Below, piece by piece: positions 21,754 through 26,313 of a DNA stretch of 64,000 nucleotides. The notes under the pieces are model-generated. The model was not told the DNA's origin, did not search any database, and saw only the letters and a list, made by a program, of their open reading frames with translations. Numbering within the stretch: position 1 is the first letter of the stretch; every line of letters starts with the position of its first letter. This DNA is from Escherichia phage ph0011. Position numbers and translations under genes: made by a program. The stretch lies in sequence record OP557969.1. One strand, given 5' to 3'.

Positions 21754-22347
21754 ATGACAAAGATTGAATTAGATGAAGCGATTAAAGGTTTATCTAATGT
21801 GTGTTTTAGTGGCGGGGCAGCAGGTGCTGACCGCCTTTTTTCTATCTATGCAAAAGATAATGGATTTGAAGTTGTTAATTTTTCATTTAAAGGTCATGAG
21901 CATAGTGTAGATGAAAATACTATATTAGAAATACCATCCAATATTCTATCTGATATTTCTATATTAAAGCAACTAAACATTGCATGTTACTCGTTGCAGA
22001 GAAAAGTACCAAAGCCTGGTTCTTATGTTTATAACTTACTTGCAAGGAATAGTTATCAAATACTTAATACAGAAAGAATATATTGTATTGCAAATATTAC
22101 ATCACCAACTAAGGTGAGTGGTGGTACTGCATGGGCAGTGCAGATGTACATGGATTCAGTTGAAAATCCTGAAATTTATTGTTATGATATGAATTCACGT
22201 TCTGTATTTTATTTTGACACAGTACTGAAAGAGTTTACTGAAACATTCTCAATACCAGAACCACACGGTAACTGGACTGGGATTGGTTCACGTAATGCTA
22301 CACAAAAACACATGGAACATTTTATTACATTTTTCAAGGAAGTATAA
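21754..22347 (+). CDS. SLOG/Rossmann-like protein (DprA/LOG-like glycine motif)
   Basis: 197 aa; FSGGAAGADR and later SGGTAWAV glycine-rich motifs; stop overlaps td start (TAATG). Confidence 0.4.
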   Translation: MTKIELDEAIKGLSNVCFSGGAAGADRLFSIYAKDNGFEVVNFSFKGHEHSVDENTILEIPSNILSDISILKQLNIACYSLQRKVPKPGSYVYNLLARNSYQILNTERIYCIANITSPTKVSGGTAWAVQMYMDSVENPEIYCYDMNSRSVFYFDTVLKEFTETFSIPEPHGNWTGIGSRNATQKHMEHFITFFKEV

Positions 22348-23987
22348 TGAAACAACTACAAGAACTATATCAAAAAATTCTAGATGAAGGCGTGGAAAGT
22401 GTTGACCGTACTGGTGTTGGTACAACCAAACTTATCGGTCAACAAATGCGTTTCGACCTTAACGATGGTTTTCCAGCAGTGACGACAAAACGTCTAGCAT
22501 GGAAAACAATGGTTGCTGAACTTTTATTTTTTATTAAAGGTATTCCAGACCGTCGAGTGATGCAGGAATTTTTACATGGTGAATTTAATGAAGATAAGAA
22601 CGATATTTGGAAAGGTAATTGTGTTGATATGAAAAATAAAAATCCATTAAAATTTAATGGATACAATTTAGGTAATATGTACCCAGTTTACTGGAGACGA
22701 ATGTATAAACCTGTTCCTAAAACAGTTAAAGTTAAACGTAAAAAAGACTTTGATTTTGAATATATTGAAAAATATAAATCATTTTATGATGATGTAGAAA
22801 TTGAAAAACATCATAAATCGGGTCAAACATTCATTGATATTAGGGGAGATGAGTTAGAATATCTTGGATTCAATGGACAGTATGAAAATAAACGACATTA
22901 TTTGAAATATAAGAACACGGGAACTATAATCAAACTCAATACATCTGAAATTGATATTAAACATAATAAACTTAATAGTGGTGAAGATTATTATAAAAAA
23001 AATTCAGTCGGTGGATATTTGGGTGCACCACGTGAAGTTCTTTCAAATGATCCATTGAACTCAAAAGTACAGAGCCTATGGTATAATATGCTTTCTCGTG
23101 TAAACACCTCTCCCAACTATAATAATATTAGTGTTAGCCCAAGGTGGTATAATTATTATAACTTCCTAACTGACATTCGTACTATACCACTGTTTTTTGA
23201 ATGGTTGGATGATCCAACATATTATGAATTAGATAAAGATTATTTTGGTTCATCTGTTTATTCAAGAAATACATGTACATTTTTACCCAAACATATCAAT
23301 CAAAAATTAATAAGAAAACGCAATGACTGTGCATTGGAAGTTGATGGAATACTTTATTATTCATTTACATGTTTTTATAAATCAATTTATGGTGGGAAAA
23401 CACAACCAAAAGATCCATTTACTTTTTTAGAAAATAACGGTCATACTTATATTATTCACGAAGAGACAGATGAATATGTATACCGTCCACAATTGTTTAT
23501 TGATCAATTAGAAACTGTTATTGAAAATATTAAACATGTCACCTTGAATGAAAATCATCCGGCTGGACGTAGATTGATTATGGATTCTTGGAATCCATCA
23601 TGGGAGGACGATTCAGTTCTGGGAATATGTCACCCATTTGTTCAATTCTTTGTAGTGAATGGAAAGCTGTCATGTGAGTTTTATATGCGTTCATCTGACA
23701 CATTTCTTGGATTACCACTGAATATATCATCATATGCATTATTGACGCACATGATTGCACAAATTACAGGTCTAGAAGTAGGAGAGCTAATTTACACTGC
23801 TGGTGATTGTCACATTTATAAAAATCACATTGAACAAGTAAAAGAACAACTACAACGAAAACCACGTGCATTACCTGAATTATGGATTGATCCTACTATT
23901 ACTGATATTGAAGATTTCACAATGGATTCTTTTAAATTGATTAATTACGATCCAATGCCAACAATTAAAGCACCGATGGCTGTATAA
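22347..23987 (+). CDS. td: thymidylate synthase (T4 Td-like) with about 260-aa in-frame insertion
   Basis: N-terminus DRTGVGT...GFPAVTTKRLAWK and C-terminus with catalytic Cys (ICHPFVQFF), DTFLGLPLNISSYALLTHM and PTIKAPMAV are ThyA-like; residues ~121-379 have no ThyA counterpart. Confidence 0.8.
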   Translation: MKQLQELYQKILDEGVESVDRTGVGTTKLIGQQMRFDLNDGFPAVTTKRLAWKTMVAELLFFIKGIPDRRVMQEFLHGEFNEDKNDIWKGNCVDMKNKNPLKFNGYNLGNMYPVYWRRMYKPVPKTVKVKRKKDFDFEYIEKYKSFYDDVEIEKHHKSGQTFIDIRGDELEYLGFNGQYENKRHYLKYKNTGTIIKLNTSEIDIKHNKLNSGEDYYKKNSVGGYLGAPREVLSNDPLNSKVQSLWYNMLSRVNTSPNYNNISVSPRWYNYYNFLTDIRTIPLFFEWLDDPTYYELDKDYFGSSVYSRNTCTFLPKHINQKLIRKRNDCALEVDGILYYSFTCFYKSIYGGKTQPKDPFTFLENNGHTYIIHEETDEYVYRPQLFIDQLETVIENIKHVTLNENHPAGRRLIMDSWNPSWEDDSVLGICHPFVQFFVVNGKLSCEFYMRSSDTFLGLPLNISSYALLTHMIAQITGLEVGELIYTAGDCHIYKNHIEQVKEQLQRKPRALPELWIDPTITDIEDFTMDSFKLINYDPMPTIKAPMAV

Positions 23988-23994
23988 ACGAAAA

Positions 23995-24020
23995 GGGAGA
24001 ACATATGTTCTCCCTTTTTT
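23995..24020. terminator. bidirectional terminator between convergent genes
   Basis: Perfect palindrome GGGAGAACA-TA-TGTTCTCCC flanked by A-run and T-run; td stops at 23987, minus-strand fibre gene stops at 24022. Confidence 0.6.
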
Positions 24021-24021
24021 A

Positions 24022-26313
24022 TTATCTAATTGTTACCAATGTTCTTCCGTCGAAACGTACATCAGGAGTTGAAGGTATACTAAACACCACGTTAGTGCCG
24101 TTAAACGTCACGCTATCGACCTCAACACGAGTATATACACCAGGGCTAATCTGTTCCTGTATCTCTGCTGTAACGATGTTTGAGGCTGTTACTGTAAGGG
24201 TGTATGAATCACCACTTAATACCCATGATGAAATAGTAAATGCGTCTGTCCTAACTGAACCTGAACCAATAGGAACCCATTGCCCTTTTACCTTTTGCAT
24301 AGAGGTTCGTTCGGATGTAGAGTATGCAATCATACCATCGACACCCACTGAGTTATCAATGCTTGCTAGTACTGGCAACTGAATACCATATCTATTAAAA
24401 CGTGTACGGATAGTTCCATTATCATAGATACTTACATCAGCATAATTACCCATAGAAAGTTTCAAATCCGCTCCATCCAATGTCATTGAACTTTGATTTG
24501 TATTACTTTCTAGTGTGAGTACACCGTTAGCTAATAAATTGATATTTTTAAATTTATTACTATTTCCTTTAAAAGTTGTATTAGCATTAAAAGTACTTGC
24601 ACCGTTAACTACAATAGTATTTTCTGCTGTGTCGCCTAATATGGTATTACCATTCAAAGTGGTTTCACCATCTACTACAATATTGGATTCGAAAGTACTA
24701 TTACCATTTACTACAAGATTGGATTTAAAAGTTCCATCACCATCTACGTCTACAGTAGAATGGAAAGTACTCTTACCATTAACCACAATAGTATTTTCTG
24801 CGGTATCACCCAATATGGTATTACTATGAACAGTCAAATTACCACTGGTGGTAACATTACTAGCTAGTGTATCACCATTCAATGTACTTGTTCCATCTAC
24901 TACAATATTGGATTTGAAAGTACTTTTACCATTAACCACAATAGTATTTTCTGGGGTTTCACCCAATGTTGTATTACCATGAACATTCAAATTACCACTA
25001 GCAGTAATATTACTAGCTAATGTATCACCAACCAATGTACTAGTACCATCTACTACAATATTACCATGAAAAGCACTTTCACCATTTTTGAATTCAACTT
25101 GTTCTTTATTCATTGAACTAAATGAAATGATATTACTACTTGCACTTATTCCAACATTAGTATTAGTTGGATTATCGAATCTCAGAACTGGCGTTGACGC
25201 AGGTGATGATGTTGATTGATATAATGTCAATGTCGAATTGGTAATTCTAATACGTTCAGTTCCAGAAGTACTGAATCCAATAGCATCATCAGCAGGATGA
25301 AAAATACCAGTATTCGTGTCTGACCATTTTTCAGGGTCATTACCTGGGTTGCTTACTGGGTCGTATGGGCTATTGTTAAATGCAATTGCTGGTGCGGTAG
25401 CACTACCATAGGTCACACCAAATCTACCACCTCCTACTGTACCATCGTCGTACATGGAATCACCAGTCCTACGTAAGCATTCAATTACAACGTTGTCGAT
25501 TGATGTTTGAACGGTTCCTGCATTCGTTCTAAATGGACGATTATTTGCAATCATGATAGTATTATCATATAATACTGAAGCTGCTGAAATACTAGTTCTT
25601 GATTGACGAAGGCGAATGTTTTTATCTTCAGTGATAATGATCCAATCACCATCTGATAGTGCTGTTTGGTTCATTGGTACACCGGATGCAAACGGTTTAG
25701 TTAAATCTTCATCAGTTGCTAAGTTTACTAGCCCACTATGACCAGTACTGGGAATGGCGGTAGATACAATTCTCGCAAAAGCATATGTTACGAGTTTAGC
25801 ACCAGAAATATTTGGATTAGAATCAACATAATATAAAATTTCTACCCAATCACCCTGACCAGTTGGGTTAGTTGGAGTGAATGTCACTGTACTTGTTGTT
25901 GGTTTATTAGCTTCAAAGTGTGCTTGTGCTGCATCTATAATACCACGTACAACATAATAATCACCACTAAGTGATGCTGTAGGTGCAGGTAGTGGACTTT
26001 GTGCCAAAGGTGGGTCTATATCATCAGGGATTGGATTATACGTACCAACAAATTGTAAACCACTAGTTACTGAATCTGGTAACTGTGATGTAAGAAGTTT
26101 GCCGTTAGCATCTAAGTTTGCAAAACGTCTATATGCCATCGAGCCATCTTCAAAATCCAGAACACCCTCGAATGATTTCCATTCTTTATTGTATCTAATC
26201 ATCCCTGATCTTATTACGTCAGCGGTTTCTTTTGATGGTGCTTTTGGTAACTCTAAAAAAGATTTACTATCAATAATTACACCACCATCACCTCTAATTC
26301 GATTTATACTCAT
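24022..26313 (-). CDS. tail fibre / receptor-binding protein with beta-helix-like repeats
   Basis: 763 aa; GAGG RBS; C-terminal ~40-aa repeats (ENTIVVNGKSTF three times); S/T/N/G-rich. Confidence 0.7.
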   Translation of the reverse strand: MSINRIRGDGGVIIDSKSFLELPKAPSKETADVIRSGMIRYNKEWKSFEGVLDFEDGSMAYRRFANLDANGKLLTSQLPDSVTSGLQFVGTYNPIPDDIDPPLAQSPLPAPTASLSGDYYVVRGIIDAAQAHFEANKPTTSTVTFTPTNPTGQGDWVEILYYVDSNPNISGAKLVTYAFARIVSTAIPSTGHSGLVNLATDEDLTKPFASGVPMNQTALSDGDWIIITEDKNIRLRQSRTSISAASVLYDNTIMIANNRPFRTNAGTVQTSIDNVVIECLRRTGDSMYDDGTVGGGRFGVTYGSATAPAIAFNNSPYDPVSNPGNDPEKWSDTNTGIFHPADDAIGFSTSGTERIRITNSTLTLYQSTSSPASTPVLRFDNPTNTNVGISASSNIISFSSMNKEQVEFKNGESAFHGNIVVDGTSTLVGDTLASNITASGNLNVHGNTTLGETPENTIVVNGKSTFKSNIVVDGTSTLNGDTLASNVTTSGNLTVHSNTILGDTAENTIVVNGKSTFHSTVDVDGDGTFKSNLVVNGNSTFESNIVVDGETTLNGNTILGDTAENTIVVNGASTFNANTTFKGNSNKFKNINLLANGVLTLESNTNQSSMTLDGADLKLSMGNYADVSIYDNGTIRTRFNRYGIQLPVLASIDNSVGVDGMIAYSTSERTSMQKVKGQWVPIGSGSVRTDAFTISSWVLSGDSYTLTVTASNIVTAEIQEQISPGVYTRVEVDSVTFNGTNVVFSIPSTPDVRFDGRTLVTIR

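What the first reader, a model, noticed from the sequence alone, without database searches (positions are those of the whole stretch)
22707..23483. About 260-aa in-frame insertion inside thymidylate synthase
The N-terminal ~120 aa and C-terminal ~167 aa are clearly ThyA/T4 Td-like, including the catalytic Cys. Between the equivalents of the GPIYGKQWR and DQI segments there is a ~260-aa stop-free insert with no ThyA counterpart. It lacks the Cys/Ser start and His-Asn end expected of an intein, and it is not at the T4 td group I intron site. The insert contains a W..M..R...Y-rich segment (SLWYNMLSRV...WYNYYNF) that reminds me of DNA-binding modules of free-standing phage homing endonucleases. 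This may be a domesticated mobile-element domain or a new regulatory domain.
Basis: partly seen in the sequence, partly recalled or inferred. Interest (0 to 1): 0.65.

Follow-up and report, generated by a model that had tools for sequence, protein, structure and literature searches.

The report
Unspliced homing-endonuclease module inside thymidylate synthase
A jumbo E. coli phage's thymidylate synthase gene carries a complete homing-endonuclease-like gene fused in frame into a surface loop, with no intron or intein to remove it, and sequence comparisons indicate that it spreads between phages as a selfish element while the enzyme stays intact.

Summary
Window 22347-23987 (+) is one 546-aa ThyA ORF with a stop-free insert of about 265 aa (aa 118-382) between the YxxWR and IDQ motifs (chance about 5e-11).

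The insert is not only a DNA-binding module. It is a whole member of a large family (about 1650 database hits) of 180-260-aa phage homing-endonuclease-like proteins. That family also occurs free-standing and next to group I introns.

No intron, intein or out-of-frame ORF was detected. AlphaFold (pLDDT 94, pTM 0.91) predicts an intact TS fold, with the module held out on a two-stranded beta stalk.

At least 46 other ThyA protein clusters carry homologous inserts at the same loop. They come from Rak2-like jumbo, T4-like, Bacillus and Vibrio phages. Long inserts keep an invariant D-K-D...N motif; short ones have lost it. All keep the TS catalytic residues and the reading frame.

Close relatives (PBECO4, 121Q) lack the insert. 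The window carries a foreign patch of about 1.3 kb, made of the insert plus thyA flanks, which looks like co-conversion.

Best reading: a splicing-free, in-frame homing element tolerated in a permissive TS loop. Nuclease activity is inferred, not shown. I found no description of it in the searchable literature; the nearest precedent is the ShiLan domain.

The parts
22347..23987 (+). thyA ORF, 546 aa plus stop; a single uninterrupted reading frame
   Evidence: PF00303 E 1.8e-78; TIGR03284 275 bits, above its cut-off
22347..22697 (+). ThyA N-terminal segment (aa 1-117), ending in LGNMYPVYWR
   Evidence: R21, E58, Y112, W116 and R117 conserved
22698..23492 (+). in-frame insert (aa 118-382): a complete homing-endonuclease-like module
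   Evidence: G+C 0.288 against 0.34 in the thyA flanks
22698..22826 (+). N-terminal stalk strand (aa 118-130) and linker (aa 131-160); conserved only among ThyA-embedded copies and absent from free-standing relatives
   Evidence: DSSP strand E118-130; alignments; dN/dS 0.2-0.4
22827..23030 (+). small beta-barrel module (aa 161-228), SH3/Tudor/PRC-barrel-like, ending in the GGYLG motif; presumed DNA-binding
23031..23321 (+). conserved core (aa 229-325): W245..M248..R251 helix, N272-F273, then a beta-beta-alpha unit (strands 293-296 and 311-314, helix 315-322); candidate nuclease domain
23232..23240 (+). D296-K297-D298 at the end of the first strand of the beta-beta-alpha unit; K297 is one of two invariant positions in 93 family members
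23298..23300 (+). N318 in the first turn of the helix of the beta-beta-alpha unit; conserved in intact copies and lost in decayed ones
23322..23474 (+). C-terminal HTH-like domain (aa 326-376), in the position where free-standing relatives carry AP2 or a NUMOD1-like HTH; the fastest-evolving part
   Evidence: weak hhalign match to the C-terminal HTH of I-HmuI (E 0.05); dN/dS 0.4-0.6
23475..23504 (+). C-terminal stalk strand (aa 377-386, YVYRPQLFID) leading back into the TS helix DQLETVI
   Evidence: DSSP strand E377-386; YRP(K/Q) conserved in embedded copies
23493..23984 (+). ThyA C-terminal segment (aa 383-546), including R408-R409, catalytic C428-H429, R448-S449-D451, N459, H489 and Y491
22497..23807 (+). 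foreign patch of about 1.3 kb (insert plus about 200 nt of left and about 310 nt of right thyA flank), 36-64% identical to PBECO4, whereas the gene ends are 89-100% identical
23990..24019 (.). 13-bp-stem hairpin between thyA and the convergent downstream gene; a likely bidirectional terminator that marks the end of the thyA transcript
   Evidence: annotated as a terminator in UE-S1

Best explanation
The insert is a homing-endonuclease-type selfish element that uses no splicing vehicle. A complete endonuclease-like gene sits in frame in a surface loop of thymidylate synthase and is translated as part of the enzyme. A two-stranded beta stalk holds the module away from the TS body, so TS stays functional and the element costs little. 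I infer that the embedded module recognises and cuts thyA alleles of co-infecting phages that lack the insert, and that repair from the insert-bearing allele then copies the insert plus adjacent thyA sequence into the recipient. I also infer that the altered flank (GNMYxxxWR in place of GP(V/I)YGKQWR) protects the carrier from its own nuclease. Once a copy stops spreading, its nuclease motif and outer domains decay, but only through in-frame changes, because thyA must still be read through. Shown here: the anatomy, the family membership of the insert, the absence of detectable splicing elements, the predicted preservation of the TS fold, purifying selection, recurrence at one site, mosaicism and the decay series. 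Inferred: that the core is a nuclease (a Lys variant of the beta-beta-alpha-metal site), that the fusion protein itself is the active form, and what the target site is.
For: (1) The insert matches PHROG 'HNH endonuclease' families (phrog_2081 E 2e-16) and aligns end to end with 178-253-aa free-standing phage proteins. A profile search finds 1650 relatives. Among the 120 listed, the only Pfam domains are AP2 and, in one, Tudor; none has another nuclease domain.
(2) Relatives sit in classic homing-endonuclease positions. They lie between the terL pieces in T7-like phages and between nrdB and a thioredoxin gene. In KIL1 one lies directly 3' of a group I intron core (94.7 and 68.9 bits), and fPS-9 gives a sub-threshold intron match (26.5 bits).
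(5) 46 of the 120 best ThyA clusters are 406-613 aa long, and the 45 I aligned all carry a homologous insert at the same loop. All aligned keep the TS catalytic residues. The 35 with inserts of at least 190 aa keep W-M-R...D-K-D...N, while the 11 with shorter inserts have degraded motifs.
(6) dN/dS is 0.07-0.22 in the core and beta module, similar to ThyA itself.
(7) Of 37 related phage records, only UE-S1 has a long insert, and it is a different variant, about 30% identical. The window is 91-100% identical to PBECO4 at codons 1-45 and 89-93% at codons 496-546, but 36-64% in between. UE-S1 and Klebsiella phage KP13-7 are 84-96% identical across insert and inner flanks, against 69-80% at the gene ends.
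(8) ThyA identity and insert identity are nearly uncoupled (Spearman 0.22 over 595 pairs).
(9) GP(V/I)YGKQWR occurs in 19 of 22 insert-less alleles and 0 of 46 insert-bearing alleles.
Confidence: 0.62

Rival explanations
1. Domesticated domain. The endonuclease-derived module has been kept for the phage's benefit, for example to tether TS to DNA or the replication/dNTP-synthesis machinery, to regulate thyA expression, or to cut the genomes of competing phages as a weapon rather than for its own spread.
For: Purifying selection on the module. A confidently predicted, fixed orientation relative to TS (pTM 0.91). A stalk and linker conserved specifically in embedded copies. An intron-encoded endonuclease is reported to help a phage compete with co-infecting phages (abstract of PMC11620839).
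Against: Only 1 of 37 related phage records plus the window carry an insert, and the two carry different variants. Patchy foreign flanks and decoupled phylogenies indicate repeated transfer rather than vertical retention. Many lineages let the module decay while keeping TS.
Confidence: 0.15
2. Passive passenger. The embedded module in this phage is no longer (or never was) an active nuclease. It is kept open only because thyA must be translated, and it moves by ordinary recombination or by a nuclease supplied in trans, as T4 mobE does for the defunct I-TevIII (PMC2790892).
For: No canonical nuclease motif is detectable. The decay series shows that the element does become inert in some lineages. 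Trans-homing has a precedent (PMC2790892, listed).
Against: The window copy keeps every family-invariant residue. dN/dS of 0.1-0.2 in the core is far below neutral. A relic kept only for frame would accumulate non-synonymous changes and in-frame deletions, as the 129-190-aa inserts have. No other member of the family is present in the 64-kb window to act in trans.
Confidence: 0.17
3. The insert is removed after all: by RNA splicing (an unrecognised intron), by protein splicing (an atypical intein), or by ribosomal bypassing. Mature ThyA would then lack it.
For: Relatives of the same endonuclease family are associated with group I introns in terL. thyA/td is a known intron host in T4 and Bacillus phage beta22 (and my own knowledge).
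Against: No intron match at E<=10. Only about 105 nt precede and about 20 nt follow the endonuclease-homologous region, which is too little for a ribozyme core. All of more than 45 divergent copies, including the decayed ones, stay stop-free and in frame, which splicing would not require. The stalk and linker are under protein-level constraint. There is no Hint fold, no terminal nucleophile and no HN/+1 residue.
Confidence: 0.04

Closest known systems
ShiLan domain of mycobacteriophage DNA methylases (Arsenault, Gosselin and Gogarten 2025, PMC11855218)
   Same: Both are insertions in a phage enzyme gene that are stop-free in the host frame. Neither has a detectable intron or intein, both show homing-like distribution, and both are predicted to fold away from the host protein.
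   Different: In ShiLan the HNH endonuclease is encoded in a different reading frame, and the in-frame product is a featureless hairpin. Here the endonuclease-like protein is the in-frame product itself, as a well-folded three-domain module, and the other frames are closed. The host gene, the phage groups and the endonuclease family also differ.
Inteins carrying a homing-endonuclease domain (LAGLIDADG or HNH)
   Same: Both are in-frame insertions at a conserved site of a nucleotide-metabolism enzyme, with an embedded endonuclease, sporadic distribution and a decay cycle.
   Different: There is no Hint splicing domain, no splice-junction residues and no predicted excision, so the module stays in the mature enzyme.
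Free-standing and intron-encoded phage homing endonucleases of the same protein family (e.g. Yersinia phage fPS-9 g047, Pseudomonas phage KIL1 gp152, Bacillus phage Mawwa gp195)
   Same: They are homologous over the whole module (25-33% identity; same beta module, W..M..R helix, LDKD...N unit and C-terminal DNA-binding domain).
   Different: Those are separate ORFs with their own start and stop, lying between genes or beside a group I intron core. The thyA copies have no start or stop of their own and have gained a stalk and linker.
HNH (His-Me finger) homing endonucleases such as I-HmuI; HNH_3-AP2 endonucleases
   Same: The overall layout is similar: an N-terminal beta DNA-binding part, a small beta-beta-alpha unit with Asp and Asn at the positions of the metal ligands, and a C-terminal HTH or AP2 domain. 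In free-standing relatives the motif sits immediately before AP2, as HNH_3 does.
T4 td group I intron with I-TevI; free-standing endonucleases that split genes (mobE and nrdA in Aeromonas phage Aeh1)
   Same: These are selfish endonuclease elements that invade thymidylate synthase or other dNTP-synthesis genes of phages. Copies of the present element occur in the td gene of T4-like phages, in the frd-td-nrdA context.
   Different: The insertion site differs (the loop after YGxQWR rather than after codon 183 of T4 td; my own knowledge). There is no ribozyme, and the host gene stays one ORF instead of being split.

Membership tests
Thymidylate synthase ThyA (PF00303 / TIGR03284) | Profile match above the curated cut-off over both halves | tested here: met
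   PF00303 263.8 bits (cut-off 24.3) in two stretches; TIGR03284 275 bits (cut-off 108)
Thymidylate synthase ThyA (PF00303 / TIGR03284) | Catalytic and substrate-binding residues (window numbering: R21, E58, Y112, R408-R409, C428-H429, R448-S449-D451, N459, H489, Y491) | tested here: met
   All present in the window and in every insert-bearing homologue aligned
Thymidylate synthase ThyA (PF00303 / TIGR03284) | TS fold | tested here: met
Thymidylate synthase ThyA (PF00303 / TIGR03284) | Enzymatic activity and dimer formation with the insert present | not testable with these tools
   Needs an enzyme assay or thyA complementation
Intein | Hint splicing domain (blocks A, B, F, G) | tested here: not met
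Intein | Junction residues: N-terminal Cys/Ser/Thr, C-terminal His-Asn, +1 Cys/Ser/Thr | tested here: not met
   The junctions read ...YWRR|MYKPV... and ...YRPQLF|IDQL...
Group I / group II intron | Ribozyme core detectable by covariance model | tested here: not met
   No intron family at E<=10 in 22000-24300 or at the gathering score anywhere in the window. The same search does find introns next to relatives in KIL1
Group I / group II intron | Removal from the mRNA | not testable with these tools
   Needs RT-PCR or RNA-seq. It is argued against by frame and stop-free conservation in more than 45 divergent copies
HNH / His-Me finger nuclease | Sequence or profile match to HNH families | tested here: not met
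   0 of 93 members hit any Pfam HNH family at E<=1; hhalign against I-HmuI and an HNH_3-AP2 protein finds no core alignment
HNH / His-Me finger nuclease | Catalytic His at the end of strand 1 of the beta-beta-alpha unit | tested here: not met
   That position holds an invariant Lys (K297) flanked by D296 and D298
HNH / His-Me finger nuclease | Beta-beta-alpha-metal fold with Asp/Asn metal ligands | tested here: inconclusive
Homing endonuclease element (functional class) | Sporadic presence or absence among close relatives at one conserved site of a conserved gene | tested here: met
Homing endonuclease element (functional class) | Co-conversion of flanking host sequence, and an element history decoupled from the host gene's | tested here: met
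Homing endonuclease element (functional class) | Site-specific cleavage of the empty allele and super-Mendelian inheritance | not testable with these tools
   Needs in vitro cleavage assays and phage crosses
ShiLan-type hidden-endonuclease insertion | Insertion stop-free in the host frame without a splicing element | tested here: met
ShiLan-type hidden-endonuclease insertion | Endonuclease encoded in an alternative reading frame of the insertion | tested here: not met
   The other five frames carry 11-46 stops, the longest alternative ORF listed there is 41 aa, and the homology lies in the host frame

The most novel reading that the evidence does not exclude
Homing endonucleases have a third way of living inside genes besides introns and inteins. 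The whole enzyme is permanently displayed, in frame and unspliced, on a stalk in a permissive loop of an essential host enzyme. It would use a previously unrecognised Lys-containing (D-K-D...N) variant of the beta-beta-alpha-metal active site. Because TS is an obligate dimer, two nuclease heads would be brought together on the target. The element has colonised thyA/td across at least four unrelated phage groups.
Probability: 0.4. Interest if true: 0.85.

Novelty: new variant of a known kind. Interest (0 to 1): 0.72.

Why it matters
Selfish endonuclease genes are thought to need a splicing vehicle (intron or intein) or an intergenic position to avoid killing their host gene. This case, with the roughly 45 other ThyA clusters I examined that carry homologous inserts, suggests a vehicle-free solution: insert as a folded domain into a tolerant surface loop.

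If that is right, it has several consequences:
- It widens the definition of mobile elements that annotation pipelines should look for. These genes are currently labelled simply 'thymidylate synthase', 'HNH endonuclease' or 'hypothetical protein'.
- It is a natural example of large-domain insertion into a well-studied enzyme and drug target.
- It points to an uncharacterised nuclease or DNA-binding fold family (about 1650 members) with an invariant D-K-D...N signature.
- It offers possible new sequence-specific DNA-targeting modules.
- It gives a directly testable system, using culturable E. coli jumbo phages with and without the insert, for studying homing and phage-phage competition.

Tried and rejected
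**Readings rejected**
- Group I/II intron: the Rfam E-value scan of 22000-24300 gave only chance sRNA and snoRNA matches plus terminator-driven hits at 23.9-24.06 kb. The gathering scan of the whole window found nothing.
- Intein: no Hint match and no junction residues.
- Hidden out-of-frame ORF, as in ShiLan: the other frames are closed.

**Searches that found nothing on the insert**
- Pfam and NCBIfam on the insert alone gave no hit.
- Profile searches of PDB sequences gave nothing for the core. Only the AP2 domain of free-standing relatives matched, weakly (WRI1).
- hhalign of the family against I-HmuI and against a canonical HNH_3-AP2 endonuclease aligned only the HTH or AP2 part, so HNH membership is not supported by sequence.

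**Other checks**
- Second copy in the window that could act in trans: none.
- Internal promoter or start: promoter-like sites are not above the shuffle expectation (17 against 14.1). M119 has a GGAG 4 nt upstream but is not conserved in the UE-S1-type inserts, so I did not pursue it.

- The first word-indexed search with the insert alone found only one close homologue. Searching with an alignment was needed.
- The exhaustive representative search was lost and then switched off, so I could not ask whether this module is embedded in frame in proteins other than ThyA.
- The afdb50 fold library was unavailable.
- Literature searches found no description of this ThyA insert. The thymidylate synthase inteins in actinophages are listed there under InterPro IPR003669, which to my knowledge is ThyX rather than ThyA.
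Full report
**Observation**

Window 22347-23987 (+) is a single 546-aa ORF. Pfam Thymidylat_synt matches it in two stretches (E 1.8e-78), and TIGR03284 scores above its cut-off. The window comes from an Asteriusvirus-like jumbo E. coli phage: flanking DNA is about 90% identical to PBECO4, 121Q and UE-S1.

In PBECO4 and 121Q, ThyA is 309 aa. Alignment with these and with E. coli ThyA puts about 265 extra residues (aa 118-382, nt 22698-23492) between the conserved Y..WR and IDQ motifs.

The insert is stop-free in a 28% G+C stretch. The expected probability is 4.8e-11, and 0 of 20,000 shuffles were stop-free. The other five frames carry 11-46 stops.

**What the insert is**

Pfam and NCBIfam see nothing in it. 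PHROGs places it in 'HNH endonuclease' families (phrog_2081 E 2e-16; phrog_953; phrog_374).

tblastn against phage genomes finds 132 records. Many hits are 178-253-aa free-standing ORFs, some annotated as HNH endonucleases, and the six I aligned match the insert from about aa 150 to its end. The shared architecture has four parts:
- a small beta module ending in G.GY.G;
- a helix carrying W..M..R;
- an N-F motif;
- an L-D-K-D...Y-S..(T)C.F....N unit, followed by a C-terminal AP2 or HTH-like domain.

A profile of ten such sequences retrieves 1650 proteins. The 120 best are mostly 230-260 aa, and the only Pfam domains among them are AP2 and, in one, Tudor. In a 93-sequence alignment the only invariant positions are W245 and K297 (ThyA numbering). 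D296, D298 and N318 are conserved in at least 90%.

Members occupy classic homing-endonuclease positions. They lie between the two pieces of terL in T7-like Yersinia and Salmonella phages, between nrdB and a thioredoxin gene in Bacillus phage Mawwa, and beside a DNA polymerase gene in an Acinetobacter phage. In Pseudomonas phage KIL1 one lies directly 3' of a group I intron core. A sub-threshold intron match sits at the same place in fPS-9.

The insert is thus a complete member of a homing-endonuclease-like family, not merely a DNA-binding module.

**Not spliced, as far as sequence can tell**
- No intron family reaches E<=10 in 22000-24300.
- Only about 105 nt precede and about 20 nt follow the endonuclease-homologous part, which leaves no room for a ribozyme core.
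- There is no Hint domain, no terminal nucleophile, no His-Asn and no +1 Cys/Ser/Thr.
- The strongest argument is comparative. Every one of more than 45 divergent insert-bearing ThyAs, including copies that have lost half of the insert, stays in frame and stop-free. RNA splicing would not demand this.

**Structure**

The insert starts and ends with long strands (118-130 and 377-386), which I read from the secondary-structure assignment as a two-stranded stalk. Between them lie three domains:
- a helical core ending in a strand-strand-helix unit (293-296, 311-314, 315-322);
- a small C-terminal alpha/beta domain (326-376).

D296-K297 lie at the end of strand 1 and N318 in the first turn of the helix. 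From my knowledge of Cas9, I-HmuI and T4 endonuclease VII, this is where His-Me nucleases place the metal-binding Asp, the general-base His and the metal-binding Asn. This suggests a Lys variant of that site.

That link is weakly supported. Pfam HNH models hit 0 of 93 members, and hhalign finds no HNH alignment. I therefore do not file the insert as an HNH nuclease.

**Recurrence and decay**

A search with the full protein lists 46 clusters of 406-613 aa among the 120 best ThyA hits. In the 45 that I aligned, the extra residues fall in the same loop (129-284 residues there, against 30-55 in insert-less ThyAs), and all retain the TS catalytic residues.

The 35 with inserts of at least 190 aa keep the W-M-R...D-K-D...N signature almost without exception. 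The 11 with shorter inserts show DCT, NCT, DSD, DAE, NKS and similar degraded motifs, and have lost the beta module and the C-terminal domain.

Hosts include:
- Rak2-like jumbo phages of E. coli and Klebsiella;
- a Bacillus Herelleviridae phage;
- Vibrio phages, where the gene is annotated 'HNH endonuclease';
- T4-like phages, in the frd-td-nrdA context.

**Mobility**

Of 37 related phage records, only UE-S1 has a long thyA, and its insert is only about 30% identical to the window's.

At the DNA level the window is 91-100% identical to PBECO4 over codons 1-45 and 89-93% over codons 496-546, but 36-64% in between. This makes a foreign patch of about 1.3 kb comprising the insert plus about 200 and 310 nt of thyA flank. 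In that patch the window is closer to two metagenomic jumbo-phage contigs.

UE-S1 has different breakpoints. Its patch is 84-96% identical to Klebsiella phage KP13-7, although the gene ends are only 69-80% identical, and dS is lower in the insert (0.54) than in ThyA (1.1-1.7).

Across 595 pairs, ThyA identity and insert identity correlate only weakly (Spearman 0.22). In some pairs the insert is better conserved than ThyA (62% against 50%); in others ThyA is 70-76% identical with inserts at 26-34%.

dN/dS in the beta module and core is 0.07-0.22, similar to ThyA. dS is saturated in most comparisons, so these values are rough.

The motif just upstream of the insertion point is GP(V/I)YGKQWR in 19 of 22 insert-less alleles and in none of 46 insert-bearing ones, which mostly read GNMYxxxWR. 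This fits a co-converted, cleavage-resistant flank. The sequences compared are not independent, however.

**Mechanism proposed**

I propose that the element is a vehicle-free homing element. It is translated as part of ThyA and held clear of the enzyme by the stalk, in a loop that I recall also carries a lineage-specific insert in eukaryotic TS. I infer that it cuts insert-less thyA alleles during co-infection, and that repair then copies the element and its adjacent flanks into the recipient. Copies that stop spreading decay in frame.

What is shown here: the anatomy, the family relationship, the absence of detectable splicing elements, the predicted preservation of TS, purifying selection, recurrence at one site, mosaicism and the decay series.

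What is inferred: nuclease activity, the Lys-based active site, the target site, and that the fusion protein rather than a sub-product is the active form.

**Rivals**
- A domesticated domain: disfavoured by sporadic distribution, transfer and decay.
- A passive passenger moved by recombination or by a nuclease acting in trans: disfavoured for this copy by intact motifs and low dN/dS, and no second family member lies in the window.
- Cryptic splicing: disfavoured by universal frame conservation.

**Comparison with known systems and novelty**

The nearest precedent is the ShiLan domain (PMC11855218). It is an unspliced, stop-free insertion in a mycobacteriophage methylase whose HNH endonuclease is hidden in another frame. 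Here the endonuclease-like protein is itself the in-frame product.

Inteins share the in-frame logic but have a splicing domain. Free-standing and intron-encoded relatives share the protein but not the embedding. The T4 td intron with I-TevI shares the host gene but not the site or the vehicle.

Literature searches found no description of this ThyA insert. I rate it a new variant of a known kind (a homing-endonuclease element), of fairly high interest. It is widespread, it is currently mis-annotated or simply unannotated, and it is directly testable in culturable E. coli phages.

Noticed in passing
L014 1201-1423 and 1450-1986; L008 1181-1414 and 1441-1977: Free-standing relatives of the insert in Pseudomonas phage KIL1 and Yersinia phage fPS-9 lie directly 3' of a group I intron core (68.9 bits in KIL1; 26.5 bits, sub-threshold, in fPS-9), between pieces of the terminase large-subunit gene. 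The fPS-9 and Vi06-type 'split terL' is therefore probably an unannotated intron. KIL1 has two more introns, in terL and in the portal gene.
   Followed up: partly
L002 2501-3430 (PBECO4 thyA) and other insert-less Rak2-like ThyAs; equivalent to the window loop at aa 117-383: Insert-less ThyAs of these jumbo phages still have 36-43 residues in this loop, against about 10 in E. coli. The segment ends in ..HGVVMKRTTDQ, which resembles the ..HVVRPKIYIDQ stalk of insert-bearing alleles. It may be the last remnant of an older decayed insert, or the native hairpin the element was grafted onto.
   Followed up: partly
window 22692-22703: The insert's first residue, M119, is preceded by GGAG 4 nt upstream (TGGAGAAGAATG). 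An internal start would yield insert plus the ThyA C-terminal half. The Met is conserved in the window subgroup (P0001, P0123, P0124) but not in UE-S1-type inserts.
   Followed up: partly
window 24022-26313 (-): The convergent downstream gene (763 aa) contains tandem internal repeats (…NTILGDTAENTIVVNGKSTF…VVDG.STL.GDTLASN…). Its length differs between relatives (654 aa in PBECO4 and 121Q, 756 aa in UE-S1), and BLAST gives staggered self-similar matches at 24561-25071. It is annotated 'structural protein' in 121Q, and CRJP21 lists a 'long tail fiber proximal subunit' among the features under the match.
   Followed up: no
window 23990-24019: A perfect 13-bp-stem hairpin lies between the convergent thyA and structural genes, with T-runs on both sides: a likely bidirectional terminator. 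It also drew spurious Rfam sRNA matches (sraA, MicX).
   Followed up: partly
window 21754-22347 (+): The upstream gene (197 aa, annotated DprA-like or DUF2493 in relatives) ends in an ATGA overlap with the thyA start, which suggests translational coupling.
   Followed up: no
L009 997-2430 (Vibrio phage D69); L007 2114-3667 (Klebsiella phage phiKp_21): Insert-bearing thyA genes are deposited as 'HNH endonuclease' (D69, D181, D148) or 'hypothetical protein' (phiKp_21). In D69 one of the paired dUMP-phosphate arginines is replaced (SRYMIV in place of (S/G)RR), so that copy may have reduced TS activity.
   Followed up: partly
L003 2501-3428 (Escherichia phage CMSTMSU): thyA is annotated as two overlapping CDSs (462 and 489 nt) in a record flagged UNVERIFIED_ORG. 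This is probably a frameshift or sequencing error rather than a split gene.
   Followed up: no
L017 1675-2238: The T4-like contig that carries a decayed thyA insert (P0170, 271 member sequences) also encodes a canonical free-standing HNH_3-AP2 endonuclease near rnh and gene 32. Its AP2 domain aligns with that of the insert's free-standing relatives (hhalign probability 92%), but its HNH_3 part does not align with their core.
   Followed up: yes
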